From sequence record PP456878.1: 64,000 bases of DNA. The stretch is one strand, 5' to 3'. Below, piece by piece: positions 39,984 to 59,467 of this stretch. Both the position numbers and the translations under genes were made by a program. This stretch comes from Pseudomonas phage vB_PaePAO1-KEN19. Numbering within the stretch: position 1 is the first letter of the stretch; each line of letters starts with the position of its first letter. The notes under the pieces were generated by a model, which had not been told where the DNA came from, did not search any database, and saw only the letters and a list, made by a program, of their open reading frames with translations.

Positions 39984-48756
<8,773 letters not shown>

Positions 48757-48819
48757 TGACGATTAGTAAAGTATCATATCGTTGTTTAACTTAGTATTAC
48801 CAAAATAGGAAAATAGAAA

Positions 48820-50472
48820 ATGAAGAAGGCATTAGTTCCTTTTAATATTTCTTTACTTATTCCTACTAAAGAACAATTAAAGTTCTTAGGTCAAGTAAAG
48901 AGTCATGAGATATTTGAAGGTTTAGGTGGTAACTTTCATGAAGATGGTTTGTTCTCTGTTTCCATTTTTGGAAGAGTTGGATCAACTGATCGTGAGAGTT
49001 TATTTGGATATATTCATTTAGGTTTAGAACTTATCCATCCAGCTGTATATCGAAACTTAATTAAATTAAAAGCTTTCTATGAAGAAATTATTCTTGGTAA
49101 GGCATTTGCAGTATTTGACGAATCTATTAAAGATTTTATCCGCGCCGATGAACTAACTGGTAAAACTGGTTATACATTCTTTTTTGATAACTGGAAACGA
49201 ATTGACTTTGGGTCCACTAAGTCAGGGGTTCGGCTATCAAGGTTACAATTAATCGAAAAATATAAAGATAACTGTATTTTTAAAGACATGCTTGTAACAC
49301 CAGCCGCTTATCGTGATGCAGAGATTGATGAGAATAATCGTGTTGAGATGGATGAGATCAATGAACACTATAGGTATCTATTAAATCAGTCGTTTGGTGT
49401 ACCTGATAGCTTTGGACCAAATGATGACTTGAGTATCTATGATCGCAAACGAGTAGCAATGCAAAACACCGTATTAGCTATTTATGAACATTATGAACGA
49501 CTGCTATCCGGTAAACGTGGATACATTCAATCTAAATGGGCATCCCGTCGTATTGCCAATGGTACACGTAACGTCATTAGTTCGCTAGATACTAATGCTG
49601 CTGATCTTGATTCACCTAATCGACCAACATTCAAAGATGCCGTAGTTGGCTTACATCAAGCAGCTCGTTCAGTTGCACCGCGTACAATCTTTGCACTAAG
49701 GCAAGGTGTAGTTGGTGAAGTGTTTGATACAGTTACTAACACTGTACAGCTCATCAATAAGAAAACACTACGTTTAGAATGGGTTGATATCTCTAACGAA
49801 GATATGGATCTATGGGGAACTCCTGAAGGGCAAGAACAAATCATCAATGAGTTAGATGTCATTGAAAAACGTTCACGTGCAATTGAAATTGCTGATCATT
49901 ATCTAGCCCTTATTTACGTTGATGATAAACAGAATTTTAAAATATTCCGCAACATCGATGAGTTACCTACTAATCTAAATAAGAAATTTGTTAGACCTAT
50001 TACTTATGCCGAATTAGTTTACCTTAGTGGATTAAGTATGTGGCGAACAAACTCAGCGTTTGTTACACGATATCCTGTAGAAAACTACAATAGCTCTATC
50101 CCCTGTAAGATGTATGTTAAAACAACCGTAGTGGGTGAATTACGTTATCCGTTAAATGATCAATGGGAACGTGATGATACGTTGGAACCAGCCTTAGAAT
50201 TCCCTGTGTTTGAATTAAATAAACCAGCCCAGTGGCATGACTCAGTATCCATCTCTCCTTCTATTCTCGCGCCATTGGGGGCGGATTTCGACGGGGACAC
50301 TGTATCATTTAACGCAGTTTATTCAGAGGAAGCTATCGCTGAAACAGATGCTTTCTTTAAGAAACGTATTGCATATATACATGCCGATGGTCGACTGGCA
50401 TTTAGTGTTGGTATCCATACACTCAATTTAACTCTTCGGTACATGACTGGGGAACCCAAACAAAGGGATTAA
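48820..50472 (+). CDS. multisubunit RNA polymerase beta-prime subunit, N-terminal fragment (550 aa)
   Basis: DGLFSVSIFG..GYIHLGLELIHPAVY aligns with beta-prime GLFCERIFG..GHIELAAPVAHIWF, and the catalytic motif is LAPLGADFDGDTVSF (NADFDGD). No zinc-finger cysteines are present. Confidence 0.75.
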   Translation: MKKALVPFNISLLIPTKEQLKFLGQVKSHEIFEGLGGNFHEDGLFSVSIFGRVGSTDRESLFGYIHLGLELIHPAVYRNLIKLKAFYEEIILGKAFAVFDESIKDFIRADELTGKTGYTFFFDNWKRIDFGSTKSGVRLSRLQLIEKYKDNCIFKDMLVTPAAYRDAEIDENNRVEMDEINEHYRYLLNQSFGVPDSFGPNDDLSIYDRKRVAMQNTVLAIYEHYERLLSGKRGYIQSKWASRRIANGTRNVISSLDTNAADLDSPNRPTFKDAVVGLHQAARSVAPRTIFALRQGVVGEVFDTVTNTVQLINKKTLRLEWVDISNEDMDLWGTPEGQEQIINELDVIEKRSRAIEIADHYLALIYVDDKQNFKIFRNIDELPTNLNKKFVRPITYAELVYLSGLSMWRTNSAFVTRYPVENYNSSIPCKMYVKTTVVGELRYPLNDQWERDDTLEPALEFPVFELNKPAQWHDSVSISPSILAPLGADFDGDTVSFNAVYSEEAIAETDAFFKKRIAYIHADGRLAFSVGIHTLNLTLRYMTGEPKQRD

Positions 50473-50474
50473 TC

Positions 50475-53400
50475 ATGCGCTTAAATATTACACAGTTTCT
50501 GAAAAATTATAGTGTACGCGAATATGCTAAACTTCAGTCACCTAAGTTGCATGCTCTAAATAAACTTGATCTACCTTTCGAATCCATTTATCAGTTCTTC
50601 GATGGTAATAATGCAGTAATGGGTCCTAGTCAAACAGACCCATTATTCTCCAAACATCAAGGTAAAGTATATATTGAGCATGTTACTGATATGCTTACAT
50701 TTGAAGGTAATCCACGTAGGACTTCAAATATCCCAGCAACAATGATTCAAGAGTTTCGCCGCCAGAACCGTTTCTTTAAACCTTTACGCAGTGATACCGG
50801 TTTTAAATTATCAAACCAGAACATTCTGGTAATGAATTATAATTTAATTAACCCTCAATGGAATTATATGGCTTCTTATAAAGCTACATGGTTCCGTTGG
50901 TCAAATGACATGCGTACATTCTGGAGTGGCGTAGCGGCTGCATGTGAACGTTTTCCTGGTTGGAACCAGTTCATTGATGTACACTTACCTGAGTTAGTTC
51001 CACCTCCTTCTTCTTTTAATAAACTACGAGGGGGTTTAACTCAAGATCTAGCTAATCAATTCAATACACCTGATATTCTAAATATATTTGATTTAGTTCG
51101 CTGGGTTTCTGATGATCGTGAAAGTTCTTTCATGAATGTCATCGATGCTAAGTATTACGGTAACATTAATCTTTTATTCCGTGTACAAAGTTCATTCTTT
51201 GTTATTAACTTAGGGATGCTTGATCAATGGCGTCGTGATCCAGAAATTAAAGATGATAAAGGTTATGATACCCAGCAAATAGCTAGGCGCCTTATTTCAC
51301 TAGTATCAGCGATGGTTGAATATAACCAAGGTAATACTTCATTAATTAAAGAAGATACGCCTATCTTTAATGAAGATATTATTGTTGATGAAGAAACTCC
51401 GGTTAGTTATGAAGAAGGTGAAGCAGAAGAGGTTGAGGATGTTGAGTCTAATAACGTTGAAGAAGAAGTAACTGAAGTTGATGTTATTGATGATGTTCAA
51501 TTTGACCCAACCAACTTAACTAACTTAATTGATATTGGCGCAATTGAGGTAACATATACCCCACCACCAGAAAGTGATCTTGAGGTAACAAAGCTTATCA
51601 TTGAAAAAGATCCACTGGAATCTTCACCTTCTCGCCAAATTAAAGAAGAGAAGGAACTCATTGTAACAGATGTACCAGAAGATGAGTTATTCATCAATAC
51701 TGAAGTTGATGAAGAAGATAAACTAATCGATGCCATTAGAGCTAAAGCATACGACATGTATCGCGTGAATATGATTTCTGCGAATACATTCGAGCAAGCT
51801 CAAGAAGATTCGATTATGTATCGTCGTCTACCTGATCCATTTACCGATCCTAATGATGAATCAGTAGAACCTATGACGATCGCTGAGGCGATGGAATATC
51901 ATCCAGATGATCTTAAGATTCCAGAAGACACCACTTTTGAAGATAAGCCAACCATTGTTGATAAATCAATGTTGGGTAGTAAGTTAAAAGCCATCCAACG
52001 CAAATACAACAAGGTCTTATTAAAGAAAGATATTTTAAACAGTGTGTTATCTGTTCAGAAACAAGGCGTATCAGTAACTAATTACAAAATTGAAACTGTA
52101 CGCGATTCTGGTAACCATTACCAAATCCACAAAGTTACATTAAAGCCTATTCGTGGTAGAAGTTCACAAGTAATGTTCCGTATCCCTGTCATTGATAATG
52201 ACGGTAGGTTCATGTCTAATGGGGTAACATATCGCCAACGTTTACAACGTGCTGATATTCCAATTCGTAAAGTTAATCCACGTAAAGTTGCATTGACCTC
52301 TTATTATAATAAGACCTTTGTGACCAGATCTGAACGTGCTGAAAACAACTTTGATAATTGGTTAATCAGAGCGATTACCAACCGTGCATTAGATGGAAGT
52401 GATATGTCTGTACATTCAGTTACCTATGCTGAATTAGATCAATCCAACTATGTTCTACCAAGGGTGTACACTACTTTAGGAACAGCTTTTAAAGGCTTCC
52501 ATAATCACCGTAATGTGTTCTATTTTAATTTCAAAGATCGTAATGAATTCTTTGCAAAACAAGGATTACATATCGAAGATTATGAAACTGATGATTTGAT
52601 AATGGTGGGGTTCAATGGCACTGATGCTATCTTGTTAGATAAGAATTCCATCTTTTACATGAAAACAGGTAATGAGCTAGAACCTATTGGTACCATTACA
52701 GATATACTTGGCTTAGATCTAACCAAAGCGCCGTTAGAAGCTATTCTAATGTCAATTGGTGGTAAAGAGCTACCATTAGGTTTCATTTTAGCATATCACC
52801 ATGGCTTAAACAATCTACTTAAGAAGTTGAATGTTAATTATCAGCGTCATCAGCGTGGTACCAGGATTGTTGTCAATAGTACGGATTATACATTAGCGTT
52901 CGCTGATGAGATCCTAGTATTTGATCGAGCTGATTATAAAGCAATGCTTGTATTAAGTGGACTCAAACGTTATCATAAATCACTGCGGCGTTATTCTGTT
53001 TATGATTTCAATAAACGAGATGTTTACTTCAGGGTTCTTGAAGAAGCTGGATTAAGTAATAGATTTACACGTGATATTGATACACTCTTCTCAGCATGGG
53101 TCGATCCAATCACTGAGGGTCTACTCAAGGAGATGGGTGAACCAACTACTTTTGAAGGATTGCTTTATCGGTCTGTCGAGTTATTAACGAACGACTGGAG
53201 TCCAGCAGAAGTAGATGGTGCATATATGCGCTATCGTGGTTATGAGCGCATGGCAGGGGCTATTTTTAATGAACTCAATAGAGCGGTACGTGTATTTAAT
53301 ATGCGTAATGGTGGGTCAGTGCAAACTGTCGAGTTAGATCCACACGTGATCTGGCGCAAGATTGTACAAGATCCGACAGTAGCCACTATTGAAGATTCTA

Positions 53401-54830
53401 ACCCCATTGCAAATATCCGTGAACAAGAAGCGATGACTTATCGTGGAGATGGTGGACGCGGTCCAACTTCAATGGTTGCACGTACACGTATTTACGGTGA
53501 AGCGGATGTTGGTGTGGTTAGTGAATCAACTGTGGACTCAGGTGACGTTGGTGTTATTGCTTACTTAGTACCTGATGCTAACTTTGTAAACATGCGTGGT
53601 GTTACGCGTATGTTTGATCCAAAGACAGATGGGCCAGCTAGACTACTCTCAACTAGTGCACTGCTTGGTGTTGCAACCGAACATGATGACCCTAAGCGAA
53701 TTAACTTTATATCAATTCAGCAGCAGCAAGGTATTTATGCTGATGGGTATACAGTTACACCAGTTCGTACAGGCTATGAACAAATCATAGCCCAAAGGAC
53801 TAGTTCTATCTTTGCTGTAGCAGCAGAACAAGATGGTGAAGTTGTAGCTATTGATGAATATGGTATCCAAGTTAAATATGCTGATGGTAATGTATTTGGA
53901 TATCAATTAGGTACAGTTCATGGCACAGCAGCTGGTGTTAACTACCCACACATTCTTGTTACCTCATTAAAGAAAGGTGATAAGTTTAAACGTGGAGATA
54001 CTATCACATATAACAAACGTTATTTCTCTGAAGATAGGTATACGCCTGGGCAAGTATTATGGAAAGCCGGTTGTATGGCTGTTGTAGCATTTGATGATAA
54101 CCTTGACACTTTAGAAGACGGTTCAGTTATTTCTGAAGACCTAGCTAAAAGGTTAAATACTCAAACAACTGCAATCAAGAATATCGATGTTAGGTTTGAT
54201 CAGACTATTCGAGATATGGTGAAAGTTGGGGATCATGTCGACTTAAATTCAATTCTATGTATAATTGAAGATCCTGAAACAGCTGCTCACTCACTATATG
54301 ACGAGGCATCTATTGAGACATTACGCAAACTATCAGCATATTCGCCACGTGCTAAGCTCGTAGGTACAGTATCAAAGATTGAATGCTTCTATCATGGTGA
54401 AATAGACGATATGACACCAAGTTTACAAGCATTAGCTAATACGTCAGATAAACAACGCGCTGAACGAGCTAAATCATTGAAAGAACCTACTTTCACTGGA
54501 CAAGTAGATGCTAACTATCGAGTGAAAGGACGAGCCTTAGAATATGACCACATGATTATTCGAGTGTATATCGATCATGATATCCCATGTGGTGTTGGAG
54601 ATAAAGGCGTAGTAGCTAACCAGATGAAAACGGTATTCTCCCGTGTAATGACTGGACGTAATGAAACTGAAGATGGCCGTAATATTGATCTACTATTCGG
54701 TAATACATCGGTAGAAGAACGAATGGTTCTATCTCCTAAAATCATTGCTACAACAACTGGTATCTTGTGGGCAGCTGGAAAACATCTTGTAGCTGTATAT
54801 AGAGGAAACACTAATGCAAAAGCTAAGTAA
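50475..54830 (+). CDS. multisubunit RNA polymerase beta subunit, large N-terminal/major fragment (1451 aa)
   Basis: [45 protein letters not shown] aligns with beta [80 protein letters not shown] aligns with [34 protein letters not shown]. The ORF ends before the GEMEVWALEAYGA region. Confidence 0.7.
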   Translation: [1451 protein letters not shown]

Positions 54831-55011
54831 TAATGTAGCACATGGTCAGAACATTGCTGTTCTTCATGCTGCTGTTAAACTAGGTACTCAAGCAATTCTA
54901 CAATCGCTTGGTGGCACCACCAGCTCCCCATCTCTGAATGGGGAGTTTTTAACTGAGGCTGATATTGCAGCAGCTTTAAACGCTCGCTTAATGAAGAACC
55001 TCAATATCTAA
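54814..55011 (+). CDS. small hypothetical protein overlapping the last codons of the beta gene (65 aa)
   Basis: A GAGGAAA RBS lies 8 nt upstream of the ATG at 54814. Confidence 0.35.
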   Translation: MQKLSNNVAHGQNIAVLHAAVKLGTQAILQSLGGTTSSPSLNGEFLTEADIAAALNARLMKNLNI

Positions 55012-55022
55012 GGAGTGTTAAA

Positions 55023-56582
55023 ATGTTCTGTAAAGAAACCCAAGCTGCGATTGTTGGCTCAGCACGTAGTCTAACTGAGGATAACCTTGTTCTAGTTATC
55101 CCTAATGAAACATATCCCCTTGCGGTCTTTGCAGATGGTTTCAGTGTAGATGGCAACTCTAATAAAGTTGCCCTCTCTGAAGAGCTGGAAGCATCTGTAG
55201 AAGAGTTCTTCGAGGAAGCTAACCAAGAGCAACCTGTTAGTGTAGAAGAAGAGCAAGAAGCTCTGATTGCACATGTCTGCTCATCATTACAAAAGATCCA
55301 ATTCAATACGCAGAATGTTATTTGCCCTGCAATTGAATATATGGTACGTGTTTTTAATGAGCGTCAAAGCATTAGTTGTCAACCAGATGTAAGCGCTACA
55401 TTCTACCACTATAATGCAGTTCATAGTGATCCACGCTTAACTGCACACGTTAGTACACGATACAATAATTTACAGCCGCTACCTGAGTATCGTACCTTTA
55501 TTCTAGAATCAATTGATGCTAATGAAATTATTCGGTTAGTGTCAATGGGTAATCCGCATCTAGATCAAACTGAAGTTGAAGAATGGCTACTATCTATTCC
55601 TAATAGTGCCGCTGTTATTGAAGGTGTGTGGAATTCTATCTTCAATGATGGTCGTCTTCTCATTCCAGGTGAACTTGAATATGTTGTGGGTAGGTCCTTC
55701 CCATTCACTGTTGATTCACTAGCTCTGGCTTACATGATTTGCGGTCACTACATCGATAACCCGGTTGAAGTTATTGGCGAGAGTGATGTTGACCTAGAAA
55801 CATGGTCACTAACTATTCGTAAACTACATGAGATGTTTGGATTCTATCTCAAGCGTGCTTATGAACGTCGTCAAGCTGATCGTGATGCAGGTCTACTCAT
55901 CCTAGCCTCAGAAGCTAATAATGTAGTTGCTAATTCTCGTTGCAAAGTAATCATTAATGGTGATGTTGCACCTCAATTTGAATTAGCCGGTGGTGACATC
56001 CAAGCTATCCTTGGTGCAGCTGTAGCAGGTAGTAATAACATTTACCTAGAACAGATTCTTAATAACTCAGAACAGTTTATTCAACGTTGGCTATCAGTAT
56101 ATCCGCTGATTAAACAATCGGCTATGGATAAAGGTTTACGTAAACTACGCAATGACATTCATGAATCATTTATGGATGGTGTCATTAATACTGAACTTAA
56201 AGATCGCCATGTTAATGAACTCGAATATCGTATTAAAGAAGCAATGAGTACGATGACGACTGAAGATCTTAAGAATCCTTATATCACCTTTGGTAAACTT
56301 ATCTGTAAAACATTCTTTACAGAAAATGTTTACTGGCAATATCTGCTAGCAGTTGATGAATTTAGTCAAATGTATCCTGAGGCCACTCTACGTGAACTCA
56401 ATACACAATCACTAATTTCACTAATGGCAGCATGGCTGTCTCAACAGATTAAAGTTGAGCGGTTCACTGGTGTTGTTGATCCTTATGCAAAACTACCAGT
56501 AAAAGAAGTTATTGAAACTGTAGAAGATGATAGCACTGAAACTTTAGATGATGTTGAAATCGAAGAAGAAGTTTCTAATTAA
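55023..56582 (+). CDS. hypothetical protein (519 aa), acidic C-terminus
   Basis: ORF with an AAGGAG RBS. Confidence 0.6.
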   Translation: MFCKETQAAIVGSARSLTEDNLVLVIPNETYPLAVFADGFSVDGNSNKVALSEELEASVEEFFEEANQEQPVSVEEEQEALIAHVCSSLQKIQFNTQNVICPAIEYMVRVFNERQSISCQPDVSATFYHYNAVHSDPRLTAHVSTRYNNLQPLPEYRTFILESIDANEIIRLVSMGNPHLDQTEVEEWLLSIPNSAAVIEGVWNSIFNDGRLLIPGELEYVVGRSFPFTVDSLALAYMICGHYIDNPVEVIGESDVDLETWSLTIRKLHEMFGFYLKRAYERRQADRDAGLLILASEANNVVANSRCKVIINGDVAPQFELAGGDIQAILGAAVAGSNNIYLEQILNNSEQFIQRWLSVYPLIKQSAMDKGLRKLRNDIHESFMDGVINTELKDRHVNELEYRIKEAMSTMTTEDLKNPYITFGKLICKTFFTENVYWQYLLAVDEFSQMYPEATLRELNTQSLISLMAAWLSQQIKVERFTGVVDPYAKLPVKEVIETVEDDSTETLDDVEIEEEVSN

Positions 56583-56629
56583 ATTATCTTAATGGTTAAT
56601 AATCATTAAAACATGCAATCGATGATAAA

Positions 56630-56655
56630 CTCCGGTATTTGGAAGGATACCGGAG
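56630..56655 (+). terminator. plus-strand hairpin ctccggtat-ttggaagg-ataccggag
   Basis: A 9-bp stem 48 nt after the stop of gene 55023-56582, with only a weak T-tract. Confidence 0.35.
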
Positions 56656-56729
56656 TAATACAGCGAATATTTAAAGGTGCATGATTTTGATTAAGTATTT
56701 TAATCTTTACATAAATGAACAATTAGGAC

Positions 56730-57458
56730 ATGATAATGGACGTACGTTCTCTTCGACGGGATCCAGAACGGGTCCACAGTCATCTAACTGATTTAGAAGA
56801 TAATTCAGTAGTAACTAATGCCCCATGTAAAATACAGATTCCAGAAAGATTTACAGGAAGACATCTAGCTGTTATTGGTAGTGAAGTATTCACTATTGGT
56901 ATATTTCCTATTATTTTTAATGATGAATATTACGCAGTAAATAATACTATTGCAATGATGCGGATAAATCCAATCTCTACTGAACGCGTCCACATCAATG
57001 GTGAAGTTTATCTAGAATTTCATTTTGATAAAGGTAGTAAGATTTTCCAGAATACTTACTTAGTTGTTAATGATACATTAACTTACTATGTCTATGATGA
57101 GTTAATTAACAAAGGAAACTTCCCTTGGTATATTAACTATTATGACAAAGCCAAATTATTTGAGACAGCTAATTTACACGCTGGTGTTAACCTTGGTGGA
57201 TGGCCTACATTACAACTTATTATTTCAACCACTCAGCGTGCCTCGGATGATATATCACAACTATATCGACATGTGTTAACTAGACACAGTGATATCGTGG
57301 ATAATCCACCAGTCGACGTACCATTCCGTTCAGTTATCTGGAATACTTCAGACACAACATCAAAACTCAATGGGGCTTATTTTGATCAAGGTATCACATC
57401 AGCACTTGTTAACCCATCTGAGTCAGTAGAGCTTATTGAAGAACTCCTCAGGACCTAA
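56730..57458 (+). CDS. hypothetical protein (242 aa)
   Basis: ORF in the plus block. Confidence 0.5.
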   Translation: MIMDVRSLRRDPERVHSHLTDLEDNSVVTNAPCKIQIPERFTGRHLAVIGSEVFTIGIFPIIFNDEYYAVNNTIAMMRINPISTERVHINGEVYLEFHFDKGSKIFQNTYLVVNDTLTYYVYDELINKGNFPWYINYYDKAKLFETANLHAGVNLGGWPTLQLIISTTQRASDDISQLYRHVLTRHSDIVDNPPVDVPFRSVIWNTSDTTSKLNGAYFDQGITSALVNPSESVELIEELLRT

Positions 57459-57469
57459 GGAGTTGCGTT

Positions 57470-58282
57470 ATGCAACCATATTCTAATTTTTCTGGTTTGC
57501 AACAGCGTACTAATAACCAAGTAGTTATCGGCAGTGATATGTTAGCCGGTACTAATAAAAAAGGTGTATTAGTACCTGATGCGGATGGTTACTATCTAAC
57601 TCCACTAGGAGCTTATGGTACCCGAAATTCAGCTGGTATGTTCTATGAAATGGCATCCGGCGTATCTATGTTTAATCCAGACTCACCTTTAATGCGCCGT
57701 GTTAAAAAGGGTGTTCTATTCATGGAATACAAACACCCTGAACCCTATCGTAAAGATGGCACACGGATGAATGAACATGAGTACCTAATGCGAATTCGTC
57801 AAATCGATGATGATCGTGTGTGTGCGCATATTAAGGAACTTATTCTGGTTGATTCTACAGATGAGAAAGGTCTTCCTATTAAACTAGTACTTGGCAAATG
57901 CAAACCATACGGTCCTTTTGGTAAGTACTTCGAAGCATCTATTACCAATCCTTCTCAGAATACTTATTGCTCGGTAAGGTCAATAACTCAAGATGATCCT
58001 ATGCGCGGTATCAAATATACCCGTGAGATTTCAACTTGGGATATGGTCGGGGAAGGTGGTATTTATGGTGCTAATAAATGGAATTCTCCTGCATTAGAGA
58101 ACTATGAAGATCAATTAATGGTTATCACGCCTGATACTCTATATCAGGTACAGCGTGAACGTGAACGTCAAATTAACATGGGTTTTGAATGTTCTGATAT
58201 CACCAATGTGACAGATCTAGCGAAAAGTCTTGGCTGGGATATTTCACCAGTTAAACATAGGCGCCCTGGCTTCATGCGTTAA
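57470..58282 (+). CDS. hypothetical protein (270 aa)
   Basis: ORF with an AAGGAG RBS. Confidence 0.55.
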   Translation: MQPYSNFSGLQQRTNNQVVIGSDMLAGTNKKGVLVPDADGYYLTPLGAYGTRNSAGMFYEMASGVSMFNPDSPLMRRVKKGVLFMEYKHPEPYRKDGTRMNEHEYLMRIRQIDDDRVCAHIKELILVDSTDEKGLPIKLVLGKCKPYGPFGKYFEASITNPSQNTYCSVRSITQDDPMRGIKYTREISTWDMVGEGGIYGANKWNSPALENYEDQLMVITPDTLYQVQRERERQINMGFECSDITNVTDLAKSLGWDISPVKHRRPGFMR

Positions 58283-58301
58283 AAATAAAAAAAGACATAA
58301 T

Positions 58302-58322
58302 GCCCTCCCGTAATGGGAGGGC
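58302..58322. terminator. bidirectional terminator gccctccc-gtaat-gggagggc with A-run upstream and T-run on the minus side
   Basis: Sits between convergent genes. Minus-sense it is followed by ATTATGTCTTTTTTTATTTTT. Confidence 0.65.
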
Positions 58323-58330
58323 TTATGCTG

Positions 58331-59467
<1,137 letters not shown>

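What the first reader, a model, noticed from the sequence alone, without database searches (positions are those of the whole stretch)
48820..54830. Split multisubunit RNA polymerase (beta-prime N-fragment and truncated beta) encoded by the phage
Two adjacent plus-strand ORFs carry unmistakable cellular-type RNAP motifs. The first has DFDGD after a GxIxLxxPxxH block. The second has the beta GPGG...[10 protein letters not shown]-like block and the GNKGVV...[13 protein letters not shown]-like block. The beta-prime piece stops after DFDGD and has no zinc finger. The beta piece stops before GEMEVWALEAYGA, so the remaining fragments must be encoded elsewhere. This fragmented architecture matches phiKZ-like and AR9-like phages that transcribe independently of the host. 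The 2-nt gap between the two ORFs suggests translational coupling and co-assembly. The unusual order, beta-prime N-fragment first and then beta, deserves comparison with known vRNAP and nvRNAP loci.
Basis: partly seen in the sequence, partly recalled or inferred. Interest (0 to 1): 0.7.

Follow-up and report, generated by a model that had tools for sequence, protein, structure and literature searches.

The report
phiKZ virion RNA polymerase genes gp180/gp178

Summary
The window is a phiKZ-type Pseudomonas jumbo phage: the 6,011 bases are 100% identical to phages PaZh_1, PA_ZH1 and Bobae.

- **ORF 48820-50472 (550 aa)** is phiKZ gp180, the beta-prime N-terminal fragment. It carries DFDGD at residues 489-493.
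- **ORF 50475-54830 (1451 aa)** is phiKZ gp178, the beta N-terminal fragment. It ends just after the beta double-psi barrel.
- **Homology.** Family profiles match solved beta-prime (AR9 beta-prime-N, E 3e-17; bacterial beta-prime, about 1e-5) and beta (Thermus beta, E 3.5e-18, four colinear blocks).
- **Published function.** These proteins, with gp80 and gp149, form the virion RNA polymerase. It is injected with the DNA and transcribes early genes.
- **Missing pieces.** gp80 and gp149 lie outside the window. The proposed fifth subunit, gp176, is inside it at 56730-57458.
- **Gene order.** The order beta-prime-N then beta-N is kept in about 20 distant relatives.

Two small corrections apply. 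The "GNKGVV" match is 8 residues out of register, and the "P" of GxIxLxxPxxH is E here.

Side observations: this phage lacks the group I intron with HNH endonuclease that splits DFDGD in the phiKZ reference, and the reference carries a one-sided exon conversion tract next to it.

The parts
48820..50472 (+). Gene for vRNAP beta-prime N-terminal subunit (phiKZ gp180 homologue, 550 aa, uninterrupted allele)
   Evidence: ORF. PHROG 2986, E 1.6e-228. 100% DNA identity to phiKZ-type phages. Annotated in KTN4 and phiKZ. Family profile matches AR9 nvRNAP beta-prime-N 7S00_d at E 3e-17 and bacterial beta-prime residues 447-516 at E about 3e-5.
49003..49041 (+). FGYIHLGLELIHP block (residues 62-74), counterpart of the beta-prime GHIELAxPVxH region; no zinc-binding cysteines precede it
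50284..50298 (+). Codons for DFDGD (residues 489-493), the catalytic Mg2+-binding motif of the beta-prime double-psi beta-barrel. The boundary 50286|50287 is an unoccupied group I intron homing site.
   Evidence: Motif position. D489, D491, G492 and D493 are invariant in 32 homologues. Insertion point in the phiKZ reference.
50475..54830 (+). Gene for vRNAP beta N-terminal subunit (phiKZ gp178 homologue, 1451 aa)
   Evidence: ORF. PHROG 3148, E 0. phmmer to Taq beta 536-910, E 5e-8. Family profile to Tth beta, E 3.5e-18, in four colinear blocks.
50475..51344 (+). gp178 residues 1-290: confidently folded alpha/beta domain with no beta counterpart (lineage-specific N-terminal extension)
51345..51710 (+). 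gp178 residues 291-412: acidic (33% D+E), predicted disordered linker
53445..53567 (+). gp178 residues 991-1031: GDGG...YG...[16 protein letters not shown] block, counterpart of beta GPGG...RDVH..YGR...ETPEG.NIGLI
   Evidence: Aligned to Tth beta 396-466. G991 and G994 invariant.
53679..53690 (+). gp178 EHDD (1069-1072), conserved beta motif. Codon D1072 (53688-53690, GAC) is the published target position of the PhiPA3 intron endonuclease gp210.
   Evidence: PMC11620839.
54597..54734 (+). gp178 residues 1375-1420: beta double-psi beta-barrel block [13 protein letters not shown]...[10 protein letters not shown] (K1377, K1385, R1390)
   Evidence: Aligned to Tth beta 822-886. G, D, K, N, Q, K nearly invariant.
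56730..57458 (+). gp176 homologue (242 aa), virion protein proposed in the literature as the fifth vRNAP subunit (beta-prime C-terminal region)

Best explanation
The two ORFs encode gp180 (beta-prime N-terminal fragment with the DFDGD Mg2+ site) and gp178 (beta N-terminal fragment, running from the beta 'GxFxxNG' region through the beta double-psi barrel). They belong to the virion-packaged multisubunit RNA polymerase (vRNAP) of a phiKZ-species jumbo phage of Pseudomonas aeruginosa.

Together with gp149 (beta C), gp80 (beta-prime middle) and probably gp176 (beta-prime C), they rebuild a beta/beta-prime catalytic core without alpha, omega or sigma. According to the literature:
- the subunits are made from middle genes;
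- they assemble in the cytoplasm before incorporation into the prohead;
- about 10 copies are packed per head and injected with the DNA;
- the enzyme transcribes early genes independently of the host polymerase.

Shown here:
- identity to phiKZ;
- the catalytic and structural motifs;
- profile-level homology to beta-prime and beta;
- where each fragment starts and stops;
- absence of the other fragments from the window;
- conservation of the gene order.

Taken from papers: packaging, injection, early-gene transcription, co-assembly and essentiality.

Inferred only: translational coupling across the 2-nt gap, and a head-targeting or assembly role for the non-beta N-terminal domain of gp178.
For: - **Identity.** 100% identity over 6,011 bp to phiKZ-type phages; 52 Pseudomonas phage records match. 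KTN4 and phiKZ annotations place gp181 | gp180 | gp178 | gp177.1 | gp177 | gp176 | gp175 in the same order as the window.
- **Family matches.** PHROG RNAP families at E 1.6e-228 and 0.
- **Beta-prime homology.** E 2.6e-17 to AR9 beta-prime-N; about 1e-5 to 3e-5 to bacterial beta-prime around NADFDGD.
- **Beta homology.** E 5e-8 for the single sequence and 3.5e-18 for the profile, in four colinear blocks.
- **Conservation.** DFDGD is invariant or nearly so in 32 homologues (D489, D491, G492, D493 invariant; F490 in 90% or more).
- **Other fragments.** gp149 and gp80 lie elsewhere in phiKZ and are absent from the window.
- **Synteny.** The order is kept in about 20 IMG/VR relatives at 32-65% identity.
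- **Literature.** vRNAP = gp178, gp149, gp180, gp80 (PMC8287921). Co-immunoprecipitation of Gp178/Gp80/Gp149 with tagged Gp180, about 10 copies per virion, middle genes (PMC10612078). Five-subunit model and co-assembly (PMC5105663, PMC5694885). Split after the double-psi beta-barrel (PMC7598289).
Against: Nothing contradicts it. The weak points are these:
- Pfam and NCBIfam give no hit to either protein.
- Single-sequence phmmer of gp180 against PDB is not significant (E 0.15), so the beta-prime assignment rests on the profile and on PHROGs.
- No solved structure of any vRNAP subunit was found by sequence.
- The assignment of gp176 as beta-prime C is not confirmed by my sequence or fold searches.
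Confidence: 0.97

Rival explanations
1. They are subunits of the second, non-virion RNA polymerase (nvRNAP), which transcribes late genes inside the phage nucleus, not of the virion enzyme.
For: Both phage polymerases are split beta/beta-prime enzymes with DFDGD. The closest solved relative of the gp180 family is an nvRNAP subunit (AR9).
Against: - The ORFs are identical to gp180 and gp178, which the phiKZ record notes as structural head proteins and which papers assign to the vRNAP.
- The nvRNAP genes gp55, gp68, gp71-73, gp74 and gp123 lie at other positions in phiKZ.
- The locus sits among head genes, next to the prohead protease.
Confidence: 0.01
2. The proteins are mainly structural or assembly components of the head whose polymerase ancestry is vestigial.
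For: Cutting the gp178 gene with PhiPA3 gp210 disrupts phiKZ capsid assembly (PMC11620839). gp178 carries a 290-residue non-polymerase domain.
Against: - The catalytic DFDGD, the beta lysine block, GxGG and EHDD are invariant or nearly so across homologues down to 20-40% identity.
- Escape mutants map to the conserved D1072.
- Early transcription is host-independent and is attributed to this enzyme.
- A dual role is possible; a purely structural role is not.
Confidence: 0.02
3. The two ORFs are really one gene, a beta-prime-N/beta fusion made by frameshifting or read-through across the 2-nt gap.
For: The gap is only 2 nt.
Against: - There is a clean TAA stop, the downstream ORF is in another frame with its own ATG, and a Shine-Dalgarno-like AAGGGA lies 8 nt upstream.
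- The two reading frames are found as separate, adjacent matches in relatives; in three loci they lie 3.7-4.4 kb apart.
- Gp180 is handled as a separate recombinant protein and antigen in PMC10612078.
- In SPN3US the two products migrate separately (59.6 and 159 kDa).
Confidence: 0.005

Closest known systems
phiKZ virion RNA polymerase subunits gp180 and gp178 (NC_004629: PHIKZ180, PHIKZ178)
   Same: Same genes. gp178 and the DNA downstream of the intron site are 99.9% identical to the reference. The neighbours are the same (gp181, gp177.1, gp177, gp176, gp175).
   Different: - The reference gene 180 is interrupted between codons D489 and F490 by a 1443-nt group I intron carrying the HNH endonuclease gp179, so it is annotated as a 490-aa truncated product. 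Here the gene is continuous (550 aa).
- The roughly 1.2 kb of exon upstream of that site differs by about 5% from the reference.
Salmonella phage SPN3US vRNAP gp240 (beta-prime N, 519 aa) and gp241 (beta N, 1401 aa), with gp218, gp42 and gp244
   Same: Same five-piece architecture, the same adjacent order (beta-prime N then beta N), and the same long non-beta N-terminal extension on beta N. gp244 is the homologue of phiKZ gp176 (PMC5105663).
   Different: Only about 29-30% protein identity to phiKZ (Table 6 of that paper). Genetic evidence (amber mutants) exists for SPN3US, not for this phage.
phiKZ and AR9 non-virion RNA polymerases (PDB 7OGP family; 7S00/7S01)
   Same: - Split beta/beta-prime core lacking alpha, omega and sigma.
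- Beta-prime is split just after the double-psi beta-barrel.
- DFDGD lies in the beta-prime-N piece.
- The gp180 family profile hits AR9 beta-prime-N at E 3e-17.
   Different: - Beta is split at a different position.
- The nvRNAP has a fifth, non-beta/beta-prime subunit (gp68) needed for promoter binding.
- It is not packaged, is made from early genes and works inside the phage nucleus.
Bacterial RNA polymerase beta (RpoB) and beta-prime (RpoC)
   Same: - Colinear conserved blocks of beta: Tth 117-144, 396-466, 536-657 and 822-886.
- Blocks of beta-prime: the region around NADFDGD, E. coli 447-516, plus an upstream region matched in chloroplast and Bacillus enzymes.
   Different: - Too diverged for Pfam or NCBIfam.
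- No zinc finger in beta-prime N.
- Each subunit is split into two or three genes that are scattered in the genome.
- There is a roughly 450-residue N-terminal addition on beta.
- The gene order is beta-prime before beta.
Cyanobacterial / plastid split beta-prime (gamma/RpoC1 + RpoC2)
   Same: The split point after the beta-prime double-psi beta-barrel coincides (PMC7598289). Plastid RpoC1 chains are among the profile hits.
   Different: The cellular enzymes keep alpha, omega and sigma and an unsplit beta. No common origin of the split has been shown.

Membership tests
Multisubunit RNAP beta-prime (largest-subunit) family | Double-psi beta-barrel carrying the DxDGD Mg2+-binding motif, in its conserved flanking context | tested here: met
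   DFDGD at 489-493 within SILAPLGADFDGDTVS. The profile aligns 476-546 to E. coli beta-prime 447-516 (E about 3e-5).
Multisubunit RNAP beta-prime (largest-subunit) family | N-terminal conserved regions upstream of the barrel (GHIELxxPVxH-like block, clamp/dock region) | tested here: met
   FGYIHLGLELIHP at 62-74. Profile positions 37-256 align to AR9 beta-prime-N 29-257 (E 6e-15 for that stretch) and 157-253 to plastid RpoC1.
Multisubunit RNAP beta-prime (largest-subunit) family | N-terminal zinc-binding cysteines | tested here: not met
   Only two cysteines (152, 429) and none in the first 150 residues. This is a known departure of the phage enzymes and is not disqualifying for the double-psi-barrel-based family.
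Multisubunit RNAP beta (second-largest-subunit) family | Colinear conserved blocks including GxGG...YG...ETPEG, EHDD and the beta double-psi barrel with GDK...K | tested here: met
   Profile against Tth beta, E 3.5e-18, four blocks in order. Single sequence, E 5e-8.
Multisubunit RNAP beta (second-largest-subunit) family | C-terminal region with the GEMEVWALEAYGA block | tested here: not met
   The protein ends at a position aligned to about Taq beta 910 of 1119. The literature assigns this region to a separate gene, gp149, which is outside the window.
phiKZ-like (Chimalliviridae) virion RNAP | Orthology to phiKZ gp180 and gp178 | tested here: met
   The 6,011 bases are 100% identical to phiKZ-species phages PaZh_1, PA_ZH1 and Bobae. 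Against the phiKZ reference, gp178 and downstream DNA are 99.9% identical and gene 180 exon 1 with its upstream region 96.2%. Synteny is the same.
phiKZ-like (Chimalliviridae) virion RNAP | Beta-prime split immediately after the double-psi beta-barrel; other fragments encoded at distant loci | tested here: met
   57 residues follow DFDGD. gp80 and gp149 are at 75 kb and 154 kb of phiKZ and absent from the window.
phiKZ-like (Chimalliviridae) virion RNAP | Protein present in virions and injected; transcribes early genes without host RNAP | not testable with these tools
   From papers only: PMC10612078, PMC8287921, PMC13282480.
phiKZ-like (Chimalliviridae) virion RNAP | Fifth subunit (gp176 / SPN3US gp244) corresponds to the beta-prime C-terminal region | tested here: inconclusive

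The most novel reading that the evidence does not exclude
The confidently folded, family-conserved N-terminal domain of gp178 (residues 1-290) is tethered by a 120-residue acidic disordered linker. It has no informative structural relative. It might be more than a head-targeting signal: it could supply a function the vRNAP otherwise lacks, such as an assembly platform replacing alpha, or early-promoter recognition replacing sigma (the role gp68 plays in the nvRNAP). My data neither support nor exclude this.
Probability: 0.1. Interest if true: 0.55.

Novelty: already known. Interest (0 to 1): 0.1.

Why it matters
The phiKZ virion RNA polymerase is what lets nucleus-forming jumbo phages start transcription without the host enzyme, and so escape rifampicin and host control. 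It remains the less understood of the two phage polymerases: my sequence searches of the PDB found no solved chain for gp180, gp178, gp149 or gp80.

This window adds no new element to that picture. It re-identifies the locus, in an allele free of the two known mobile introns. The practical value is as a positive control for the scan: a tool-less reader recognised a polymerase so diverged that Pfam and NCBIfam miss it completely.

Tried and rejected
- **Pfam** on both proteins, gp181 and gp177: no RNAP hit at E up to 1.
- **NCBIfam:** only a 0.1 E-value trace to archaeal subunit A'.
- **phmmer of gp180 against PDB:** best hit plant Pol V largest subunit, E 0.15. Not significant alone, although the alignment is on the right motifs.
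- **phmmer of phiKZ gp149 and gp80 against PDB:** nothing. I could therefore not confirm their beta C / beta-prime middle assignment myself and rely on the literature.
- **Rfam on the whole window:** no match, so there is no intron or other known RNA here.
- **Fusion/frameshift reading of the 2-nt gap:** considered and rejected (see rivals).
- **Promoter/terminator scan:** no usable signal for phage promoters, since the tool models sigma-70 only.
- **Thomas et al. 2012 (PMC3323674)** on phiKZ head proteolysis is not held in the library.
Full report
**1. What is there**

The ORF listing shows two long + strand ORFs, 48820-50472 (550 aa) and 50475-54830 (1451 aa). They diverge from a 2240-aa ORF on the minus strand (42034-48756). 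Downstream follow ORFs of 65, 519, 242 and 270 aa. The two ORFs are separated by TAA-TC-ATG, a 2-nt gap, and AAGGGA lies 8 nt before the second ATG.

**2. Identity of the window**

The 6,011 bases are 100% identical to Pseudomonas phages PaZh_1, PA_ZH1 and Bobae, and at least 99% identical to 42 phiKZ-type records. All 52 matching records are Pseudomonas phages.

The KTN4 and phiKZ (NC_004629) annotations give the gene order:
- gp181, a tail-associated lysin with an SLT domain;
- gp180;
- gp178;
- gp177.1 and gp177;
- gp176;
- gp175, the head maturation protease.

PHROGs agrees: phrog_2986 at E 1.6e-228, phrog_3148 at E 0, and gp175 as head maturation protease. The window runs in reverse orientation relative to NC_004629 and covers roughly 172.6-238 kb of that record.

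**3.

- DFDGD is at residues 489-493 of the 550-aa protein, 57 residues from its end.
- The 'GxIxLxxPxxH' block is FGYIHLGLELIHP (62-74). The P is E in this protein, while the family consensus is GYIxLxxPVxHP.
- There are only two cysteines, so there is no zinc finger.
- In the 1451-aa protein, YRGDGGRG...RIYG...[16 protein letters not shown] (991-1031) aligns to Thermus beta 396-466.
- EHDD (1069-1072) lies in the block aligned to beta 536-657.
- The C-terminal [20 protein letters not shown]...[10 protein letters not shown] aligns to beta 822-886.
- In both the single-sequence and the profile alignment, GDKGVV pairs with beta 'GDKLAN' and QMKTV pairs with 'GNKGV'.
- The protein ends at a position aligned to Taq beta 910 of 1119.

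**4. Is the homology more than motif coincidence?**

Pfam and NCBIfam see nothing. Single-sequence phmmer of gp180 against PDB reaches only E 0.15.

A 32-sequence profile of gp180 relatives (down to 43% identity) hits the AR9 nvRNAP beta-prime-N chain at E 2.6e-17. It also hits dozens of bacterial and plastid beta-prime chains at 4e-6 to 2e-4, on the expected segments.

gp178 alone hits Taq/Tth beta at 5e-8. A 23-sequence profile reaches 3.5e-18, with four colinear pieces: Tth beta 117-144, 396-466, 536-657 and 822-886.

**5. What the literature says**

- The phiKZ virion RNAP consists of at least gp178, gp149, gp180 and gp80 and is injected to express early genes (PMC8287921).
- Tagged Gp180 co-precipitates Gp178, Gp80 and Gp149 and is incorporated into virions (PMC10612078).
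- There are about 10 vRNAP copies per virion, and the subunits are products of middle genes (PMC10612078).
- In SPN3US the homologues are gp240 (beta-prime N), gp241 (beta N), gp218 (beta C), gp42 (beta-prime M) and gp244 (beta-prime C, the homologue of phiKZ gp176). Knocking out one subunit removes all five from heads, so the complex assembles before packaging (PMC5105663, PMC5694885).
- The review PMC7598289 notes that beta-prime-like subunits of both phage polymerases are split after the double-psi beta-barrel. It also notes that the beta split sites differ between vRNAP and nvRNAP.

**6. The missing fragments**

- gp149 (NC_004629 154274-154948, 224 aa) and gp80 (75025-76374, 449 aa) lie far outside the part of the genome covered by the window.
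- tblastn of both against the window finds nothing better than E 0.58.
- The proposed fifth subunit, gp176, is inside the window at 56730-57458, 1.9 kb downstream of gp178.
- I tried to test its beta-prime-C assignment. A 27-sequence profile finds no beta-prime chain.

**7. Gene order**

In 29 IMG/VR loci that encode a gp180 relative, about 20 (32-65% identity) have a gp178 relative downstream on the same strand.
- Most of these also keep gp181 upstream on the opposite strand.
- About 14 of them keep gp176 and gp175 further downstream.

The order is thus the conserved arrangement of this phage family. By contrast, the phiKZ nvRNAP cluster has gp71-73 (beta-like) followed by gp74 (beta-prime-like).

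**8. The non-beta part of gp178**

The first beta-like block starts near residue 569.
- Residues 1-290 fold confidently (pLDDT above 90).
- Residues 291-412 are an acidic (33% D+E), disordered linker.
[quoted passage not shown] **9. Mobile introns: side observations**

*Intron in gene 180 of the reference.* Relative to this window, the phiKZ reference has 1443 extra bases between codons D489 and F490 of gene 180.
- They contain a group I intron core (Rfam RF00028, 92 bits, E 7.5e-24).
- They also contain gp179, an HNH endonuclease (Pfam HNH_3, E 7e-9).
- This explains why the reference annotates a truncated 490-aa gp180.
- Ten phage records carry the whole intron.
- Many environmental gp180 relatives are annotated as products of about 489-504 aa covering about 89% of the query, consistent with the same interruption.
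- The window has no Rfam match at all.

*Conversion tract.* In the 1.2 kb of exon 5' of the site, the intron-containing reference differs from the window at 62 positions (49119-50256), many spaced by multiples of 3. In the 1.2 kb 3' of the site it differs at 1 position. The intron-less KTN4 differs at only 4 positions in the same 5' stretch. This is the pattern expected from one-sided co-conversion during homing from a diverged donor.

*Second homing site.* The PhiPA3 intron endonuclease gp210 nicks phiKZ gene 178 at the D1072 codon, and A3215 is required (PMC11620839). In the window this codon is the wild-type GAC at 53688-53690. Both known homing sites of the locus are therefore empty and intact in this phage.

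**10. Verdict**

Interest is low.

Noticed in passing
window 50286|50287 (between codons D489 and F490 of the gp180 gene); L003 16347-17789: The phiKZ reference carries a 1443-nt group I intron (Rfam 92 bits) with the HNH endonuclease gp179 exactly inside the DFDGD-coding sequence. This window lacks it, so gp180 is a continuous 550 aa. Ten phage records hold the full intron.
   Followed up: yes
window 49119-50256: The intron-containing phiKZ reference differs from the window at 62 positions (many at 3-nt spacing) in the 1.2 kb of exon 5' of the intron site, but at 1 position in the 1.2 kb 3' of it. Intron-less KTN4 differs at only 4 positions in that stretch. This looks like a one-sided co-conversion tract from homing.
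   Followed up: partly
window 53688-53690 (gp178 codon D1072, GAC): This is the published nicking target of the PhiPA3 intron endonuclease gp210 (escape mutations at A3215/G3214). The site is wild type here, so this phage is predicted to be sensitive in mixed infections.
   Followed up: partly
window 50475-51710: gp178 begins with a confidently predicted 290-residue alpha/beta domain that has no informative structural relative. It is followed by a 120-residue acidic, disordered linker. Neither has a counterpart in cellular beta.
   Followed up: partly
L010, L013, L015, L016, L017, L019, L025 (IMG/VR relatives): In several distant relatives the gp180 or gp178 reading frame is broken into 2-3 pieces spread over up to 6.6 kb, or 3.7-4.4 kb is inserted between the two genes. 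This suggests further introns or inserted genes at this locus.
   Followed up: no
window 48500-58600: Sigma-70-type promoter-like matches are about half as frequent as in shuffled sequence (18 against 37 +/- 6.5). This is consistent with a genome that does not use the host polymerase.
   Followed up: no
window 58302-58322: A perfect GC-rich hairpin (GCCCTCCC-ATTAC-GGGAGGGC) lies between the convergent gp175 (+) and gp174 (-) genes. It is a likely bidirectional terminator.
   Followed up: no
window 54814-55011: A small ORF (65 aa, phiKZ gp177.1) overlaps the last 17 nt of the gp178 gene. It has no family match in Pfam.
   Followed up: no
other phiKZ-type genomes (hits H36-H40): The 3' 300-380 nt of the gene-180 intron (ribozyme core) matches other places in intron-less phiKZ-type genomes at 85-91% identity. 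Related group I introns therefore sit in other genes of these phages.
   Followed up: no
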